Source: Phyllobates terribilis
Lineage: Eukaryota
DNA length: 64,000 nucleotides
Reading direction: 5' to 3'
NCBI RefSeq assembly: GCF_046119375.1
Contig: NW_027362765.1
Location: forward strand, 231,508,001 to 231,572,000
Shown here: positions 12,327 through 19,724 of the stretch, in pieces
How the letters are laid out: each line of letters opens with the position of its first letter
Numbering within the stretch: position 1 is the first letter of the stretch
Translations under genes and position numbers: made by a program
Notes under the pieces: generated by a model
Database searches by the model: none
What the model saw: the letters and a program-made list of their open reading frames with translations, nothing else
What the model was told of the DNA's origin: nothing

Positions 12327-13956
12327 CATTACAGACCAAAAGTTTGGACACATCTTCTCATTTACAGGTTTTCCTGTATTTTCATGACTATAAAAATTGT
12401 ACATTCACATTGAAGGCATCAAAACTATGAATTAACACATGTGGAATTATATACTTAACAAAAAAGTGTGAAACAACTGAAAATATGTCTTATATTCTAG
12501 GTTCTTCAAAGTAGCCACATTTTGCTTTGATGACTGCTTTGCACACTCTTGGCATTCTCTTGATGAGCTTCAAGAGGTAGTCACCGGAAATGGTTTTCCA
12601 ACAATCTTGAAGGAGTTCCCAGAGATGCTTAGCACTTGTTGTCCCTTTCGTCTTCACTCTGCGGTCCAGCTCACCCCAAACCATCTCGATTGGGTTCAGG
12701 TCTGGTGACTGTGGAGGCCAGGTCATCTGGCGTAGCACTCCATCACTCTCCCTCTTGGTCAAATAGCCCTTACACAGCCCGGAGGTGTGTTTGGGGTCAC
12801 TGTCCTGTTGAAAAATAAGTGATGGTCCAACTAAATGCAAACCAGATGGAATAGCATGCCGCTGCAAGATGCTGTGGTACCCATGCTGGTTCAGTATGCC
12901 TTCAATTTTGAATAAATCCCCAACAGTGTCACCAGCAAAGCATCCCCACACCATCACACCACCTCTTCCATGCTTCACGGTGGGAACCAGGCATGTAGAG
13001 TCCATCCGTTCACCTTTTTTGCGTCGCACAAAGACACGGTGGTTGGAACCAAAGATCTCAAATTTGCCCTCATCAGACCAAAGCACAGATTTCCACTGGT
13101 CTAATGTCCATTCCTTGTGTTCTTTAGCCCAAACAAGTCTCTTCTGCTTGTTGCCTGTCCTTAGCAGTGGTTTCCTAGCAGCTATTTTACCATGAAGGCC
13201 TGCTGCACAAAGTCTCCTCTTAACAGTTGTTGTAGAGATGTGTCTGCTGCTAGAACTCTGTGTGGCATTGACCTGGTCTCTCATCTGAGCTGCTGCTAAC
13301 CTGCGATTTTTGAGGCAGGTGACTCAGATAAACTTATCCTCAGAAGCAGAGGTGACTCTTGGTCTTCCTTTCCTGGGGCGGTCCTCATGTGAACCAGTTT
13401 CTTTGTAGCGCTTGATGGTTTTTGCAAATGCACTTGGGGACACTTTCAAAGTTTGCCCAATTTTTCGGACTGACTGACCTTCATTTCTTAAAGTAATGAT
13501 GGCCACTCGTTTTTCTTTACTTAGCTGCTTTTTTCTTGCCATAATACAAATTCTAACAGTCTATTTAGTAGGACTAACAGCTGTGTATTCACCTGACTTC
13601 TGCACAACACAACTGATGGTCCCAACCCCATTTATAAGGCAAGAAATCCCACTTATTAAACCTGACAGGGCACACCTGTGAAGTGAAAACCATTTCCGGT
13701 GACTACCTCTTGAAGCTCATCAAGAGAATGCCAAGAGTGTGCAAAGCAGTCATCAAAGCAAAAGGTGGCTACTTTGAAGAACCTAGAATATAAGACATAT
13801 TTTCAGTTATTTCACACTTTCTTGTTAAGTATATAATTCCACATGTGTTAATTCATAGTTTTGATGCCTTCAGTGTGAATGTACAATTTTCAAAGTCATG
13901 AAAATACAGAAAAATCTGTAAATGAGGAGGTGTGTCCAAACTTTTGGTCTGTACTG
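12327..13956 (-). mobile_element. DD38E (Intruder-type) Tc1-like transposon, copy A; 350-codon transposase with one premature stop
   Basis: TA-flanked ~270-bp TIRs; ORF 13542-12490 in one frame, broken only by TGA at 13326-13324 (CGA in copy B); 38 residues between D of QQDSD and E of DLNPIE. Confidence 0.92.
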
Positions 13957-14730
13957 TATATATCACAGTGATGGGATTTTTTTTATGATAACATTGTTAG
14001 CAGCAAATTTAGATTTAAAGTTTATCAAATTTTAATATTTTCACAAAATAAAATTAAAGTTAGACACTTTTAAACTTTAAATACTTACAGGTGTATCTCA
14101 CTAAATTAGAATATCATCAAAAAGTTCATTTATTTCAGTTCTTCTGTCCAAAAAGTGAAACTCATATTATATAGAGTCATTACAAACAGAGTGATCTATT
14201 TCAAGTGTTTATTTCTGTTAATGTTGATGATTATGGCTTACAGCCAATGAAAGCACAAAAGTCATTATCTCAGTAAATTAGAATACAGGCTTGAAAAATG
14301 TTTTTAAAATGTGAAATGTTGGCCTACTGAAATGTATGTTCAGTAAATGCACTCAATACTTGGTCGCGGCTCCTTTTGCATCAATTACTGCATCAATGTG
14401 GCGTGGCATGGAGGCAATCAGCCTGTGGCACTGCTGAGGTGTTATGGAAGCCCAGGTTGCTTTGATAGCAGCCTTCAACTCATCTGCATTGTTGGGTCTG
14501 GTGTCTCTCATCTTCCTCTTGACAATACCAAGGTCAGACGAGTTTGCTGGCCAATCAGGCACAGCGATACTGTGGTTTTTAAACCAGGTATTGGTACTTT
14601 TGGCAGTGTGGACAGGTGCCAAGTCCTGCTGGAGAATAAAATTTCCATCTCCAGAAAGCTTGTCGGGAGAGGGAAGCATGAAGTGCTCTAAAATGTCCTG
14701 GTAGACGGCTGCACTGACTTTGGTCTTGAT

Positions 14731-15024
14731 TAGGGTTGAGCGAGTATGTTCTGTCCGAGTATGCTCGGGCTGAGCTCCGAGTATTTACAGCTGCTTGGTG
14801 ATATGGTTGAATCGCTCCCGTGTGCATGATTTGCAACTGTTTGACAGTTATTACATGTGAGGAATGTCTTTCTTACATTCCTCACATGTAATAAAGCTGT
14901 CCAACAGTTGCAAATCATGCACACGGGAGCGATTTAACCTCATCACTGAGCAGCTGTAAATACTCGGAGCTCAGCCCGAGCATACTCGGCGAAAGGGTTA
15001 ATAGAACATACTCGCTCAACACTA
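14731..15024. mobile_element. hAT MITE (tagggttgagcgag...ctcgctcaacacta), copy 1
   Basis: Perfect 8-bp TSD gtcttgat (14723-14730 and 15025-15032) interrupting the Tc1 transposase; long inverted arms. Confidence 0.92.
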
Positions 15025-15748
15025 GTCTTGATAAAACACAGTGGACCTACACCAGCAGATGACATGGCTCCCCAAACCATCACTGATTGTGGAAACTTCA
15101 CACTAGACCTCAAGCAGCTTGGATTGTGGCCTCTCCACTCTTCCTCCAGACTCTGGGACCTAAATTTCCAAAAGAAATGCAAAATTTACTTTCATCTGAA
15201 AACAACACCTTGGACCACTAACCAACAGTCCAGGTCTTTTTTTCCTTGGCCCAGGTAAGACACTTCTGACGTTGTCTATTGGTCATGGGTGACTTGACAC
15301 AAGGAATGCGACACTTGTAGCCGATGTCCTGGATACGTCTGTGTGGTGGCTCTTGAAGCAATGACTCCAGCAGCAGTCCACTCCTAGTGAATCTCCCCCA
15401 AGTTTTTTAATGGCCTTTTCTTAATCCTTTCAAGGCTGCGGATATCCCGGTTGCTTGTGCACCTCTTCCTACCACACTTTTTCTTTCTATTCAACTTTCC
15501 ATTAATATGTTTGGATACAGTCCTCGGTGAACAGCCAGCTTCTTTAGCAATGACCTTTTGTGGCTTACCCTCCTTGTGGAGTGTGTCAATGACTGCCTTC
15601 TGGACATCTGTCAAGTCAGCAGTCTTCCCCATGATTGTGAAGATTACTGAAACAGACTAAGGGACCTTTTTAAATGCTTAGGAAGCCTTTGCAGGTGTTT
15701 AATTATTTTAATTTACTGAATGATTTTTGTGTTTTCATTGGCTGTAAG

Positions 15749-16411
15749 TTTTCAAGCAAGATAGTTAAAATATAACATTTATTAGATATACATTAAAATT
15801 ATTTCCTATCAAGTAAAGAACCCAAAAGGGCCAGATAGTGAACCCTGGGTCTTCTGAATATTTCAGTCTCCCCTAACGAATCTACTTTAGGAGGAAACGT
15901 GTTGGGAGCAGGATACCTCCAGTATGTTTTGGTCATGAAGTTTAGGATGACATCATACCAGGATGAATCAAGCCATGATGCACTTTAGGATTGGGTGAGA
16001 TTGTTTCAATTTGTTTAATATAACAACAACCCTAAGGATTCCTTCAGTGGTGGCTTTGTTGATTTTCCCTGACATAGTCCACGGTACCTTATTGAATAGA
16101 GGTCATGTGGGATTCTAATGTATAATCCATGCTACCTTTTGTGTTTAAAGGACACATGCGAGTTTATTGTATACCTATTTTTGAGCGCACACATGGTATC
16201 CCTATATTGACATGTTGAGGTGTGTTTCGCATGTATACACCATCATAATTTATTGATGGTAATTCAAAAGACCTAGGGTTCACTATCTGGCCCATTAGGG
16301 TTCTTTACTTGATAGGAAATAATTTTAATGTATATCTAATAAATGTTAGTTAAAATATATCTTGCTTGAAAATTGAGTATTCTGGTGGTTACCCCGATAG
16401 CTTGTTATATA
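15749..16411 (+). mobile_element. Penelope-like / retrozyme-like insertion with inverted terminal arms and hammerhead motif
   Basis: 15-bp direct repeat ttcattggctgtaag at 15734-15748 and 16412-16426; ~105-bp inverted arms 15749-15853 / 16268-16372; hammerhead-like motif 15868-15908; AATAAA at 16338-16343. Confidence 0.65.
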
Positions 16412-16603
16412 TTCATTGGCTGTAAGCCATAATCATCAGCATTAACAGAAATAAACACTTGAAATAGATCACTGTTTATAATGACTCTATAAGAGTTTGA
16501 GTTTCACTTTTTGTACTTAAGATAAATGAACGGAAATAAATTAACTTTTCGATGATATTCTAATTTAGTGAATAAAGTACTTGTATATATCCTTAAAGGG
16601 AAT

Positions 16604-16899
16604 GAGACCATATGCTGGTGTGGTTGGCCCTGGGTTCCTCCTAATGCAGGACAATGCCAGACCTCATGTGGCTGGAGTGTGTCAGCAGTTCCTGCAAGAT
16701 GAAGGCATTGAAGCTATGGACTGGCCCGTCCGTTCCCCAGACCTGAATCCGATTGAGCACATCTGGGACATCATGTCTCGCTCCATCCACCAACGTCACG
16801 TTGCACCACAGACTGTCCAGGAGTTGACGGATGCTTTAGTCCAGGTCTGGGAGGAGATCCCACAGGAGACCATCCGCAACCTCATCAGGAGCATGCCCA
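16604..16899 (+). mobile_element. Tc1 DD34E transposase C-terminal fragment
   Basis: MQDNARPHVAGVCQQFLQDEGIEAMDWPVRSPDLNPIEHIWD (34 residues between D and E). Confidence 0.85.
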
Positions 16900-17590
16900 C
16901 TTGCTGAGTAGGCAAAAGAAAAGGCCTCCCTAGTGATTTGGGGTTTTGAGGCTTTAACCCATTACTTGCCAAATTAGCAATTTTCATTTTTTTTTTTTTT
17001 TTTTTGGACCTAATTAGAAAATCTTAGCCGCTAGAAGCAAAAAATTAGGCGTCCCAAAAAAAAGGACATTGGTAGATAATGGGTTAAAGCGCACCTGTCA
17101 GCAGGATTGTGCTCAGTAAACCACATACACTGTCAGGTGGGCGACATTACACTGAGTAAAATGATACCTTGGTTGATGATATCCGTCCTGTGGTTCTTGT
17201 GTAATCTTTACTTTCAGTTTGGAGATAATGATATGCTCATGCTGTGGGGGGGCGCTCTAGCTGGTGCTCTGCTTACATATTCAGCTATATGCTCTTATGA
17301 CAACTCACTGATCTGCTTCCTATTTTACATCTAGTAGTGTGGGGCTAGGTAACATAGGGGCAGGTCAGTGAAGGCACAGTCGTATGTTACAAAAATGTGA
17401 GCACTATAGGATTATTAGATTTAGCGCTGTGCCCACTCCAGTCTCAGGGTCGGTGATGGTCCTGGTTTTCATACTCCCACTGATCAGAAAGTGATGGCAT
17501 ATCACCTTAGAGGATAGATTAAATGTTTAAAGAAATTTTCATGACTAAAAACACAAAAAAAAAAAAAAAAAAAACCACACCATAACTTAC

Positions 17591-17816
17591 TTTAAGTATT
17601 TGTAGATCAGCTCCTCCCGGGTGAGCAGCTCTTCAGGGAAAGGGACGGTTGGCATAGTGAACTGATGCTGCAGGGGGCTTTCTTGGGAGCGGTGGAAGGA
17701 AGCCTGACAGGTGAGGATCGGTAGTCCATGCTGGACTGCCTTAACTGACCGTACACTGAAACTTCGCCCATCTCGTGTCCGCTCCACTTGGTACAACACT
17801 GGAACCTTGGGGTCCC
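17591..17816 (-). CDS. ACOT8: Acyl-CoA thioesterase 8, exon 3
   Basis: DPKVPVLYQVERTRDGRSFSVRSVKAVQHG...QHQFTMPTVPFPEELL; AG at 17818-17817, donor GTAAGT at 17590; 226 nt. Confidence 0.95.
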
Positions 17817-19724
17817 CTAGTGGTGGACATAAGCAACAGTTATTGTAAGGGAGAAGACAGACCTCTGGCACCCATTTAATATACCGTAAATAGAATAGGA
17901 AAAGATGGCTCTGCGACTATTTAGGACTGTGAGCTGCCAGCAAAAGTTATCTTATGGGAATCAACTGCACAGCTGTGGAGTATGGCATATGTGGAAAGAG
18001 GACAGCTGAAAGTGGCTCAATGACTCCTGTGTGATCGTGGGTGGGCCTAGTACTGCGAGGAGAGACCCCTGTGAATGGAGCAGAGCAGCAGGACCAGGCA
18101 CAAGGATGCGGCTTCCTCAGTCTGCTGTGAGGTCCCACAATCGTCCATCGGTGTAACATCACCAGAATCTCCCTTTAGCCCTTTCACTGGAGGAAAAATG
18201 TCCTGACTTTTATCAAACCACTCTAACCAGAAACAAACTTACAAAAAAAACACTATAAAACTCATGTTTTTGACAAAGTCAGACAGAAGCAAAGTGCACA
18301 ACACCCATCCTAAAAATATGATATGCAGAGTTCATACATGCCACTTATGCCTTTACATGTACATATTTCTGTCCTTGGCCTACGGGTGCAGAACACTGTC
18401 TGAAAGGGAACAATCCCTTTAACCTTAAGTCCTAATATTCCCAATGTCACATATCACATACATACTAGACAGTAAGAGTTTAAAGTGGACCTGTCACTTG
18501 CCATACATAGGTAGTTTTTAGGCCAGGACTACATGGTGACGAGTCAACATGATTTTCTGTCACCAGTCACAAATTGTAAGTCACATGCGACTGCGACTTG
18601 TGCGAGACTTATTTGGCCTTTATTTTTTAATGGCAAAATCACAGCTCTAATATAGCGGCCCAACAGCAAGTTACACAATTTGTCAATGAATTATTGTCAT
18701 GCGTCACAGTCTAGCCCCAGCCTTATCTGGTGTAAAGGTCACAGTCATCCTGAATCTGCTCTATTGTTCCTTTAATATGGCCCCCTCTTGCCTGTAATCT
18801 AGTCTTCTTAGCCAAGTGGGAGTGGTTCATAACTCCTCTATGAGAGTCTTCTTGATGATAATGCTTAGTTGGGCAAAAATTAGATTTATATAGAAGAAAG
18901 AGGGGGCATCTCAGGAACGGAGAGGCACAGGAGTAAAAAAAAAAAAGCCATATTTAGAACAGGGTTAAAAAAAAAAAAAAAAAAATGTGACAGAGTCAAA
19001 CTAGTAGGTGCTATGATTTAAGATGATAATTGATCTAAAAAGCATCAGTTTTTACTATTGTTGGGGCTAGATATTCCGGTCTTTGTTAGCAGATGCAGGC
19101 ATCCTACTAAATTCAGAAGTTAGTCTAACCCTTGGTTCACACACTGGCTATTTGGTGCAGTTTTAAAGCACAGATTTTCCACAGCATTTTACAATACAAT
19201 AAGCAAAGTGGATGAGTTTTAACAGAATCTCATGCACCTGCTGTTTTTGTGTGGCACCCGCCTGCAGATTGGCTTTTGCTTTTCTTTTTATATGCAGCAT
19301 GTAAAGTTCTGTGGCAGAAATGCACATTTTTTGACATGGACTTTACATATTCATTTCAATGGGGACCCTAAATCTGCAGTTTATAAGTGACCTGGTGTTG
19401 TCCTGTTGTGCTTTTTGTTAATTGCAACAAAAAACAGATGTAAAAATGCATAAAAAGTGCAAAAATTATGCACAGATTTTTTTGCAGTAACTGCAGATTT
19501 CATTTTAGAAATCTGCATATAAAAAAATCCTACCATATATGCAATGTGTGAACCTAGCCTAAGCATGCTCTTAGAAATTCCAGATAGCTGATATATTGGA
19601 CTAAACTACTCCTGGCATACAACACTTAGGAGCTCCTGCTCAGGGGGCTGTACAGCAGTCTTCCACAGTATCCCTTTAAACCTGTAGAGACTATCAGCAG
19701 TTACATTCTGATGGGCTCCTTAGG

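What the first reader, a model, noticed from the sequence alone, without database searches (positions are those of the whole stretch)
15734..16426. Fold-back insertion with a hammerhead ribozyme motif and a 15-bp target duplication (Penelope/retrozyme-like)
Seen: a 663-bp insert in a Tc1 end is flanked by ttcattggctgtaag on both sides. It begins with a ~105-bp inverted copy of its own near-3' end (15749-15853 vs 16268-16372). 15 nt later comes a hammerhead-like motif: 5-bp stem I CTCCC(15868-72)/GGGAG(15904-08), core CTAACGA (CUGANGA with G5 changed to A), imperfect stem II, GAAAC-gt-GT-T. About 430 nt with no clear ORF follow, then AATAAA. Known: Penelope-like elements carry minimal hammerheads in their pseudo-LTRs, often insert with an inverted end copy and have variable TSDs; non-autonomous ribozyme retroelements (retrozymes) exist in amphibians. 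Inference: a short non-autonomous ribozyme-bearing retroelement, possibly an undescribed family; this copy is probably catalytically dead.
Basis: partly seen in the sequence, partly recalled or inferred. Interest (0 to 1): 0.7.

Follow-up and report, generated by a model that had tools for sequence, protein, structure and literature searches.

The report
Mirror-ended stub of a Penelope retrotransposon
This insert is an ordinary, broken-off, partly mirror-imaged end piece of a protein-coding Penelope-type jumping gene rather than a small mobile element of its own; its sister copies show that the gene's RNA likely folds its first 19 bases back onto a site about 500 bases downstream, around a predicted self-cutting motif that is damaged in this copy.

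Summary
The anatomy is real: a 663-bp insert, a true 15-bp target duplication (present once in 11 of 11 empty Tc1 copies), a 111-nt inverted arm and a hammerhead motif. It is not a retrozyme. Sister copies run 3 kb upstream into a reverse transcriptase plus GIY-YIG endonuclease gene with a Neptune-type cysteine linker, and others run downstream into that gene's start codon. The insert is therefore the terminal repeat (pLTR) of an autonomous Penelope-like element, 5'-truncated, with an inverted 5' arm, a 39-nt tail on one end only and a long TSD: the published insertion pattern. The family restores CUGAUGA and the ACGCGU palindrome, but not a canonical stem II; this copy has two damaging changes. 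Extra, not found in my literature searches: the family pLTR keeps a 19-bp long-range helix with two compensated pairs across subfamilies, enclosing the hammerhead, and 5' ends of truncated copies pile up at its upstream arm (8 of 10, then 6 of 12 in a replication set), likely the transcript start. The scan noted similar stubs before in other genomes and other families of this genome, but not this sequence.

The parts
15734..15748 (+). Left copy of the 15-bp target-site duplication
   Evidence: single copy in 11 of 11 empty Tc1 sites
15749..15859 (-). Inverted, 5'-truncated pLTR arm (111 nt) whose outer end is the tail-less end of the element
   Evidence: same end point as many other copies
15840..15858 (-). 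Copy of helix arm D inside the inverted arm; the inversion breakpoint lies one base beyond it
15861..16411 (+). Sense pLTR of a Neptune-type Penelope-like element, 5'-truncated 43 nt before the predicted cut; the family ORF starts 12 nt after its 3' end in tandem copies
15868..15908 (+). Minimal type I hammerhead motif; predicted cut 15903/15904; G5>A at 15875 and C>T at 15900 (breaks the ACGCGT palindrome) against the family; stem II weak in the whole family
16263..16281 (+). Downstream arm D of the family's 19-bp long-range helix; its partner U lies 65-47 nt upstream of 15861 in longer copies and is absent from the sense part here
16338..16343 (+). AATAAA, 29 nt before the tail-less end; AATAAA or ATTAAA in 85 of 93 family ends
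16347..16359 (+). 13-bp micro-inversion private to the sense arm of this copy
16373..16411 (+). 39-nt 'tail' between the two fixed 3' ends of the family
16412..16426 (+). Right copy of the target-site duplication
14086..16588 (-). Host Tc1-type DNA transposon; the insert sits inside its right-hand terminal inverted repeat
   Evidence: alignments to 11 other copies; transposase-like frames in those copies

Best explanation
The insert is a dead-on-arrival, 5'-truncated end piece (pLTR) of an autonomous Penelope-like retrotransposon, likely pasted in by that element's own endonuclease and reverse transcriptase, which would have primed once from each strand of a staggered cut and so left a mirror-image arm. 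[quoted passage not shown] Inferred: the enzyme nicks both target strands about 15 bp apart; one nick primes at the tailed site and copied 551 nt (through an uncut hammerhead), the other primes at the tail-less site and copied 111 nt; the two cDNAs were joined over 1-2 bases and gap filling made the duplication. Later point changes hit the hammerhead core and a 13-bp piece flipped. In the parent, the pLTR is likely the 5' leader of the transcript: it would start just before helix arm U, pair U with D, carry the hammerhead inside that domain and place the two priming sites and the start codon right after it.
For: Family of at least 250 places by one exact 17-mer, control 0. Upstream continuity into PF00078 and PF01541, CX2-5CxxC linker and CCHH-type motif; best homologues are frog proteins at about 50% identity. 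Downstream continuity into the ORF start. Two 3' end classes. 14 of 14 scorable head-to-head inserts have one tailed and one tail-less end (two of them less sure), 10 of 14 with a 14-17-bp TSD. The same layout is published: inverted 5'-truncated copy, 30-40-bp tail at one end (PMC8557442 passages), Pen2a_Av with 9-bp TSD (PMC3846280 passages), two RT start sites bounding the tail and cleavage of both strands in vitro (PMC11167929, parts 1-2 of 4).
Against: The double-priming step is inferred from end patterns only; fold-back self-priming on an antisense template has been proposed for such junctions (PMC3846280). 4 of 14 head-to-head inserts gave no convincing TSD, and 9 of the 20 stretches could not be scored. 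No intact ORF was seen in any copy examined (frames are split), so activity today is not shown. No clade tree with named references was built. No RNA evidence for start site, cleavage or splicing.
Confidence: 0.94

Rival explanations
1. A short non-autonomous ribozyme retroelement (retrozyme or SINE-like family) derived from a Penelope pLTR and mobilised in trans as a defined unit.
For: Solo pLTR-only copies with TSDs exist (L005 10 bp, L012 13 bp); a fraction of copies starts at one point near arm U, which yields near-uniform 600-800-nt stubs; retrozymes are reported to derive from pLTRs (bioRxiv 10.64898/2026.07.22.740005, part 1 of 5 and passages).
Against: Most copies run on beyond the pLTR: 26 of 53 and 24 of 40 sampled copies reach the edge of the 340-350 nt fetched upstream of the cut; no same-strand tandem hammerheads in 224 loci; the listed exact-match places (100 of 103) show no same-strand pair closer than about 7 kb; no subfamily confined to short copies was seen; this insert's structure is unique.
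Confidence: 0.03
2. Same parent element, but the mirror arm arose by one cDNA folding back or switching template at the U/D repeat, not by a second priming event.
For: The breakpoint lies one base beyond arm D and at the foot of the hairpin next to arm U; U and D are 19-nt complements.
Against: The arm's outer end is exactly the second fixed priming site and the one-tail rule holds family-wide; a U/D switch should leave the 44-nt hairpin in place, and that junction was found 0 times in the genome (exact pattern); other inversion breakpoints are scattered.
Confidence: 0.15
3. A DNA-transposon MITE or a repair patch, with the 15-bp repeat arising from repair.
For: The insert begins with an inverted repeat and lies among DNA transposons.
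Against: The inverted arms are not terminal on the right (39-nt overhang), other copies lack them, and the sequence is continuous with an RT gene; 14-17-bp duplications recur across the family.
Confidence: 0.01

Closest known systems
Neptune-clade EN+ Penelope-like elements (PMC8557442, passages read)
   Same: RT followed by C-terminal GIY-YIG, CX2-5CxxC linker, CCHH-type motif, pLTR with minimal hammerhead, partial tandems, inverted 5'-truncated copy, 30-40-bp one-sided tail.
   Different: Targets seen here are not microsatellites (this one is a Tc1 end); long pLTR leader (about 650-850 nt); 19-bp long-range helix not described in the passages read. Nematis shares the linker, so the clade call rests also on the host.
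Poseidon of Anolis carolinensis, PAc (PMC11167929, parts 1-2 of 4 read)
   Same: Two fixed RT start sites bounding the tail; uncut RNA used as template; AT-rich target.
   Different: In PAc the ORF starts in hammerhead stem II and the RT start sites lie inside the ORF; here the hammerhead is about 500 nt upstream and both sites precede the ATG; PAc is of the Penelope/Poseidon clade, described without the cysteine linker.
Adineta vaga Pen2a_Av insertions (PMC3846280, passages read)
   Same: Inverted pLTR plus direct pLTR, optional 31-bp tail on one, whole unit inside a TSD.
   Different: TSD 8-10 bp there, 14-17 bp here; this insert holds no ORF.
Minimal PLE hammerheads (PMC4209133, parts 1-2 of 4 read)
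   Same: Type I, 5-bp stem I, extra nucleotide after A9, palindromic helix III remnant (ACGCGU) for dimers.
   Different: No G10.1-C11.1 pair and at best about 3 bp of stem II, against the conserved G-C pair and long helix II reported.
Metazoan non-LTR retrozymes (PMC7229834 passages; bioRxiv 10.64898/2026.07.22.740005 part 1 and passages)
   Same: Non-coding piece with a type I hammerhead, pLTR-related.
   Different: Retrozymes are 170-400-nt tandem units with a hammerhead in each; this is a single 551-nt pLTR fragment continuous with a coding element.

Membership tests
EN+ Penelope-like element (parent family) | ORF with RT and C-terminal GIY-YIG endonuclease | tested here: met
   PF00078 above cut-off in L031 and L032, PF01541 above cut-off in L031 and L037; in sister copies, not in the insert
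EN+ Penelope-like element (parent family) | pLTR found both after the ORF and in front of it (partial tandem) | tested here: met
   3' of the ORF in L031-L037; directly before the ATG in L054, L057, L059, L061 and others
EN+ Penelope-like element (parent family) | Optional 30-40-bp tail, at one end of inverted insertions | tested here: met
   39-nt tail; one tailed and one tail-less end in 14 of 14 scorable inserts
EN+ Penelope-like element (parent family) | Hammerhead motif in the pLTR | tested here: met
   103 exact matches to the intact motif, control 0
EN+ Penelope-like element (parent family) | Spliceosomal intron in the leader (some PLEs) | tested here: inconclusive
   No GT-AG joint among the joints in 4 runs of contigs; candidate donor-like sites only
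Neptune clade | CX2-5CxxC linker before GIY-YIG and CCHH motif | tested here: met
   (L031, L037); shared with Nematis
Neptune clade | RT phylogeny with named references | not tested
   no named PLE reference set among the tools' hits
Minimal PLE hammerhead | Core C3-U4-G5-A6-N7-G8-A9, G12-A13-A14, U16.1-H17 and stem I | tested here: met
   family: each core column 38-41 of 41 copies; this copy fails at G5
Minimal PLE hammerhead | Palindromic 15.2-16.2 stretch for dimer formation | tested here: met
   family ACGCGU, 35-40 of 41 per column; this copy ACGUGU, not met
Minimal PLE hammerhead | Stem II closed by G10.1-C11.1 | tested here: not met
   13-14 nt, position 11.1 is G, at best about 3 bp; isolated motifs do not fold into the hammerhead
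Minimal PLE hammerhead | Self-cleavage | not testable with these tools
   only 1 of 53 sampled copies starts exactly at the predicted cut, 3 more within 11 nt after it: no clear signal
Non-LTR retrozyme | 170-400-nt head-to-tail units, a hammerhead in each | tested here: not met
Non-LTR retrozyme | No link in cis to a coding element | tested here: not met
Non-LTR retrozyme | Circular or multimeric RNA | not testable with these tools
   only assembled contigs were served
MITE | Terminal inverted repeats shared by all copies | tested here: not met
   inversion private and not terminal

The most novel reading that the evidence does not exclude
The transcript of this Penelope-like family begins at helix arm U, and its first 19 nt clamp onto arm D 460-700 nt downstream, closing a leader domain that holds the hammerhead and ends just before the poly(A) signal, the two RT priming sites and the start codon. 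The clamp would be a selected RNA element of a PLE leader (ribozyme control or RT loading), and pLTR-only stubs would be run-off copies of the 5' end of the RNA.
Probability: 0.45. Interest if true: 0.55.

Novelty: new member of a known kind. Interest (0 to 1): 0.3.

Why it matters
The insert itself is a routine footprint. Its family gives two testable handles on the poorly understood PLE cycle: a strict one-tail-per-insert rule with a 14-17-bp duplication, which fits a two-nick, two-priming model, and a compensated long-range helix that starts where truncated copies start. If the helix is functional it would define the 5' end and fold of a PLE leader and might explain how a hammerhead with almost no stem II is kept unchanged.

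Tried and rejected
Rfam scan: 7 chance hits, no hammerhead. Tandem repeat scan 13000-19000: none. U/D template-switch junction with the hairpin retained: 0 matches. Folding the isolated motifs: no hammerhead fold, z -0.8 to +0.7; the whole pLTR is not unusually stable overall (z -1.36), though U-D is in both the MFE and centroid structures. Pile-up of 5' ends at the predicted cut: inconclusive. Sequencing runs: no RNA holder listed on record; contigs of runs guessed to be RNA cover the pLTR but cannot show start, strand, cleavage or expression, and no listed piece bridged this insert's junctions by 31 bases. Intron in the leader: no joint seen; the 110-nt segment missing from this copy's subfamily does not have GT-AG ends. 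Lunse et al. on PLE hammerhead variants is not held, and the supplement of PMC4209133 (Xenopus PLE hammerheads) was not opened: either may already show this stem II variant. Look-up of earlier scan notes by sequence found nothing.

Full report
Observation. A 663-bp insert (15749-16411) lies between two copies of TTCATTGGCTGTAAG. Eleven of 11 other Tc1 copies examined hold this 15-mer once and join the two flanks, so it is a target-site duplication inside the terminal repeat of a Tc1-type element spanning about 14086-16588. The inverted arm is 111 nt (15749-15859 vs 16262-16372). Of its 11 mismatches, 7 are due to a 13-bp micro-inversion in the sense arm and 4 are point changes. The hammerhead-like motif is at 15868-15908 and was the only hit of a relaxed pattern in the window; Rfam does not detect it.

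It is the end of a coding element. A genome search gave 448 candidates, of which 40 were scored; only the window copy matches the whole insert, and most others match from window 15861 onward. Their shared sequence goes on upstream. Ten-kilobase stretches show about 3 kb of shared sequence with RT (PF00078) and GIY-YIG (PF01541) frames, a CFKCSGCVxC linker and a CxC...H...H motif. The best database homologues are frog proteins at about 50% identity, none named as a PLE. In other copies the same 550-660 nt run straight into the start of that ORF, with ATG 12 nt after the point where the window insert ends. So 15861-16411 is the pseudo-LTR of an autonomous Penelope-like element. The cysteine linker marks Neptune or Nematis (PMC8557442, passages); Neptune and Poseidon are the clades reported in vertebrates (bioRxiv 10.64898/2026.07.22.740005, passages). 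No tree was built. One exact 17-mer occurs 250 times and the intact hammerhead 103 times, controls 0. No locus held (224, many short) has two same-strand hammerheads, so there is no sign of retrozyme arrays.

How the insert was likely made. Family copies end either at the equivalent of 16372 or about 40 nt further, at 16411: the PLE tail. The window insert has the tail-less end on its inverted arm and the tailed end on its sense arm. I scored every head-to-head insertion with both outer ends in view: 11 of the 20 stretches (9 had an end outside the stretch or one arm only) plus the window, L031 and L007. All 14 have one tailed and one tail-less end (in L116 and L129 the tail-less end is placed less surely; L007 carries only a 14-nt tail scrap). 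Ten of 14 have a 14-17-bp duplication (that of L007 read by eye). These stretches were chosen by me, not at random. The layout is published (PMC8557442 Fig. 2 legend; Pen2a_Av, PMC3846280), and the Anolis Poseidon protein cuts both strands and starts reverse transcription at two sites that bound the tail (PMC11167929, parts 1-2 of 4). Inference: two nicks about 15 bp apart, one priming at each site, cDNAs of 551 and 111 nt joined over 1-2 bases. The long cDNA passed through the hammerhead, so its template was uncut. Fold-back priming remains a rival; the junction expected from a switch at the internal repeat was found 0 times.

The hammerhead. In 41 aligned copies from four subfamilies each core column is kept in 38-41 copies and stem I in 39-41; the helix III remnant is the palindrome ACGCGU. 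Between the youngest and oldest subfamilies the motif differs only at two loop II columns, against 148 of 573 columns (26%) across the pLTR outside the long helix, which suggests selection in active elements. The window copy has G5>A and a broken palindrome and is probably inactive (established hammerhead chemistry, my knowledge). Against a standard minimal hammerhead (PMC4209133, parts 1-2 of 4) the family has the extra base after A9 but lacks G10.1-C11.1 and has at best about 3 bp of stem II; isolated motifs do not fold as hammerheads. Whether it cuts is open: 1 of 53 sampled copies starts exactly at the predicted cut and 3 within 11 nt after it.

A long-range helix. Untruncated copies carry a 19-nt arm U (108-90 nt before the cut) complementary to arm D (window 16263-16281), enclosing 460-700 nt. 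In 41 copies 765 of 779 cells pair (98.2%). Two positions change on both sides between subfamilies (C-G 26 / U-A 14; C-G 20 / U-A 14 / U-G 5); between the youngest and oldest subfamilies the only four helix columns that differ are these partners. Slid controls pair at 15-61%; 0 of 500 shuffles reach the covariation score, but 37 of 500 reach the count of compensated pairs, and the shuffles ignore relatedness: this is two events, not many. Copies were selected by having both arms. The helix is in the MFE and centroid fold of one pLTR. Homogenisation of the arms at the DNA or cDNA level is an alternative to RNA selection; the wobble intermediate and the absent switch junction argue mildly against it.

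Where truncated copies begin. In 53 copies picked by an internal 17-mer (52 stretches from the first 100 listed of 250 places, one per duplicated cluster, some already-held loci left out), 10 true 5' ends fell between -290 and -37 from the cut (2 internal deletions dropped); 8 lay in -127..-85 and none in -290..-128 (window chosen after seeing the data). With that window written down first, 40 further copies gave 7 of 14, or 6 of 12 after dropping one duplicate and one internal deletion (p about 0.009). Seven of the 22 ends lie within 4 nt before U. A TTTAAA lies about 31 nt upstream. Reading: run-off at a transcript start; rival: RT stops when the fresh copy of U folds back on the copy of D. 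The window copy stopped 65 nt short of U, at the foot of the adjoining hairpin, and its inverted arm stopped one base past D; this may be chance. AATAAA or ATTAAA is kept in 85 of 93 ends, 29 nt before the tail-less end, and L026 ends there in a run of A, so that end may also be a poly(A) site. Pseudo-LTR promoters are known for Drosophila Penelope (PMC2377424, passages; PMC6765202, passages).

Novelty. The insert is a new member of a known kind. Five full-text searches (the last two aimed at long-range or compensatory pairing in pLTRs, one off-topic listing each) showed no description of such a helix; the library lacks most subscription papers, the Lunse et al. paper was not held, supplements were not opened, and Repbase/Dfam could not be searched. 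Earlier scan notes describe similar stubs, one-each ends and run-off ideas in other families; two of them prompted the 5'-end test and one the poly(A)/intron check; none matched this sequence and none came up for the helix. Retrozyme features were taken from PMC7229834 (passages) and the bioRxiv paper (part 1 of 5).

Verdict. Real, ordinary in kind, misnamed as a retrozyme; interest 0.3, carried by the family-level helix and end patterns.

Noticed in passing
window 14731-15024: 294-bp fold-back MITE with an 8-bp target duplication (GTCTTGAT, 14723-30 and 15025-32), hAT-like by duplication length, inserted in the same Tc1 copy.
   Followed up: partly
window 16951-17090: 140-bp MITE with 22-nt inverted ends reading TTAACCC...GGGTTAA, piggyBac-like by its TTAA ends (family label recalled).
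   Followed up: no
window 16602-16901: Open 100-codon fragment of a second Tc1-type transposase (QDNARPH...SPDLNPIEH) on the + strand (label recalled, no family search run).
   Followed up: no
window 16347-16359: 13-bp micro-inversion present only in the sense arm; it makes this stretch a direct repeat of the inverted arm.
   Followed up: yes
G000:C4:309.58-311.25 Mb (L022-L025, L029, L030); also C5:223.6-225.1 Mb: One PLE copy recurs about every 100 kb with the same flanks: large tandem segmental duplication; similar spacing on C5.
   Followed up: no
alignment A2, columns 633-766: This copy's subfamily (5 of 41 aligned copies) lacks 110 nt of the leader yet spread, so that part is dispensable; leader length varies by about 200 nt between subfamilies while the helix arms are kept.
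   Followed up: partly
L007:3036-3049 (locus + strand): An insertion whose second arm is only a 14-nt scrap of the tail, next to a 14-bp duplication: a minimal case of the one-tail rule.
   Followed up: partly
window 15892-15896 with 15917-15921, and 15905-15908 with 15917-15920: Family-conserved GGAGG/CCTCC and GGAG/CTCC complements could sequester the cleavage site or stem I, an alternative off-state fold (inference).
   Followed up: no
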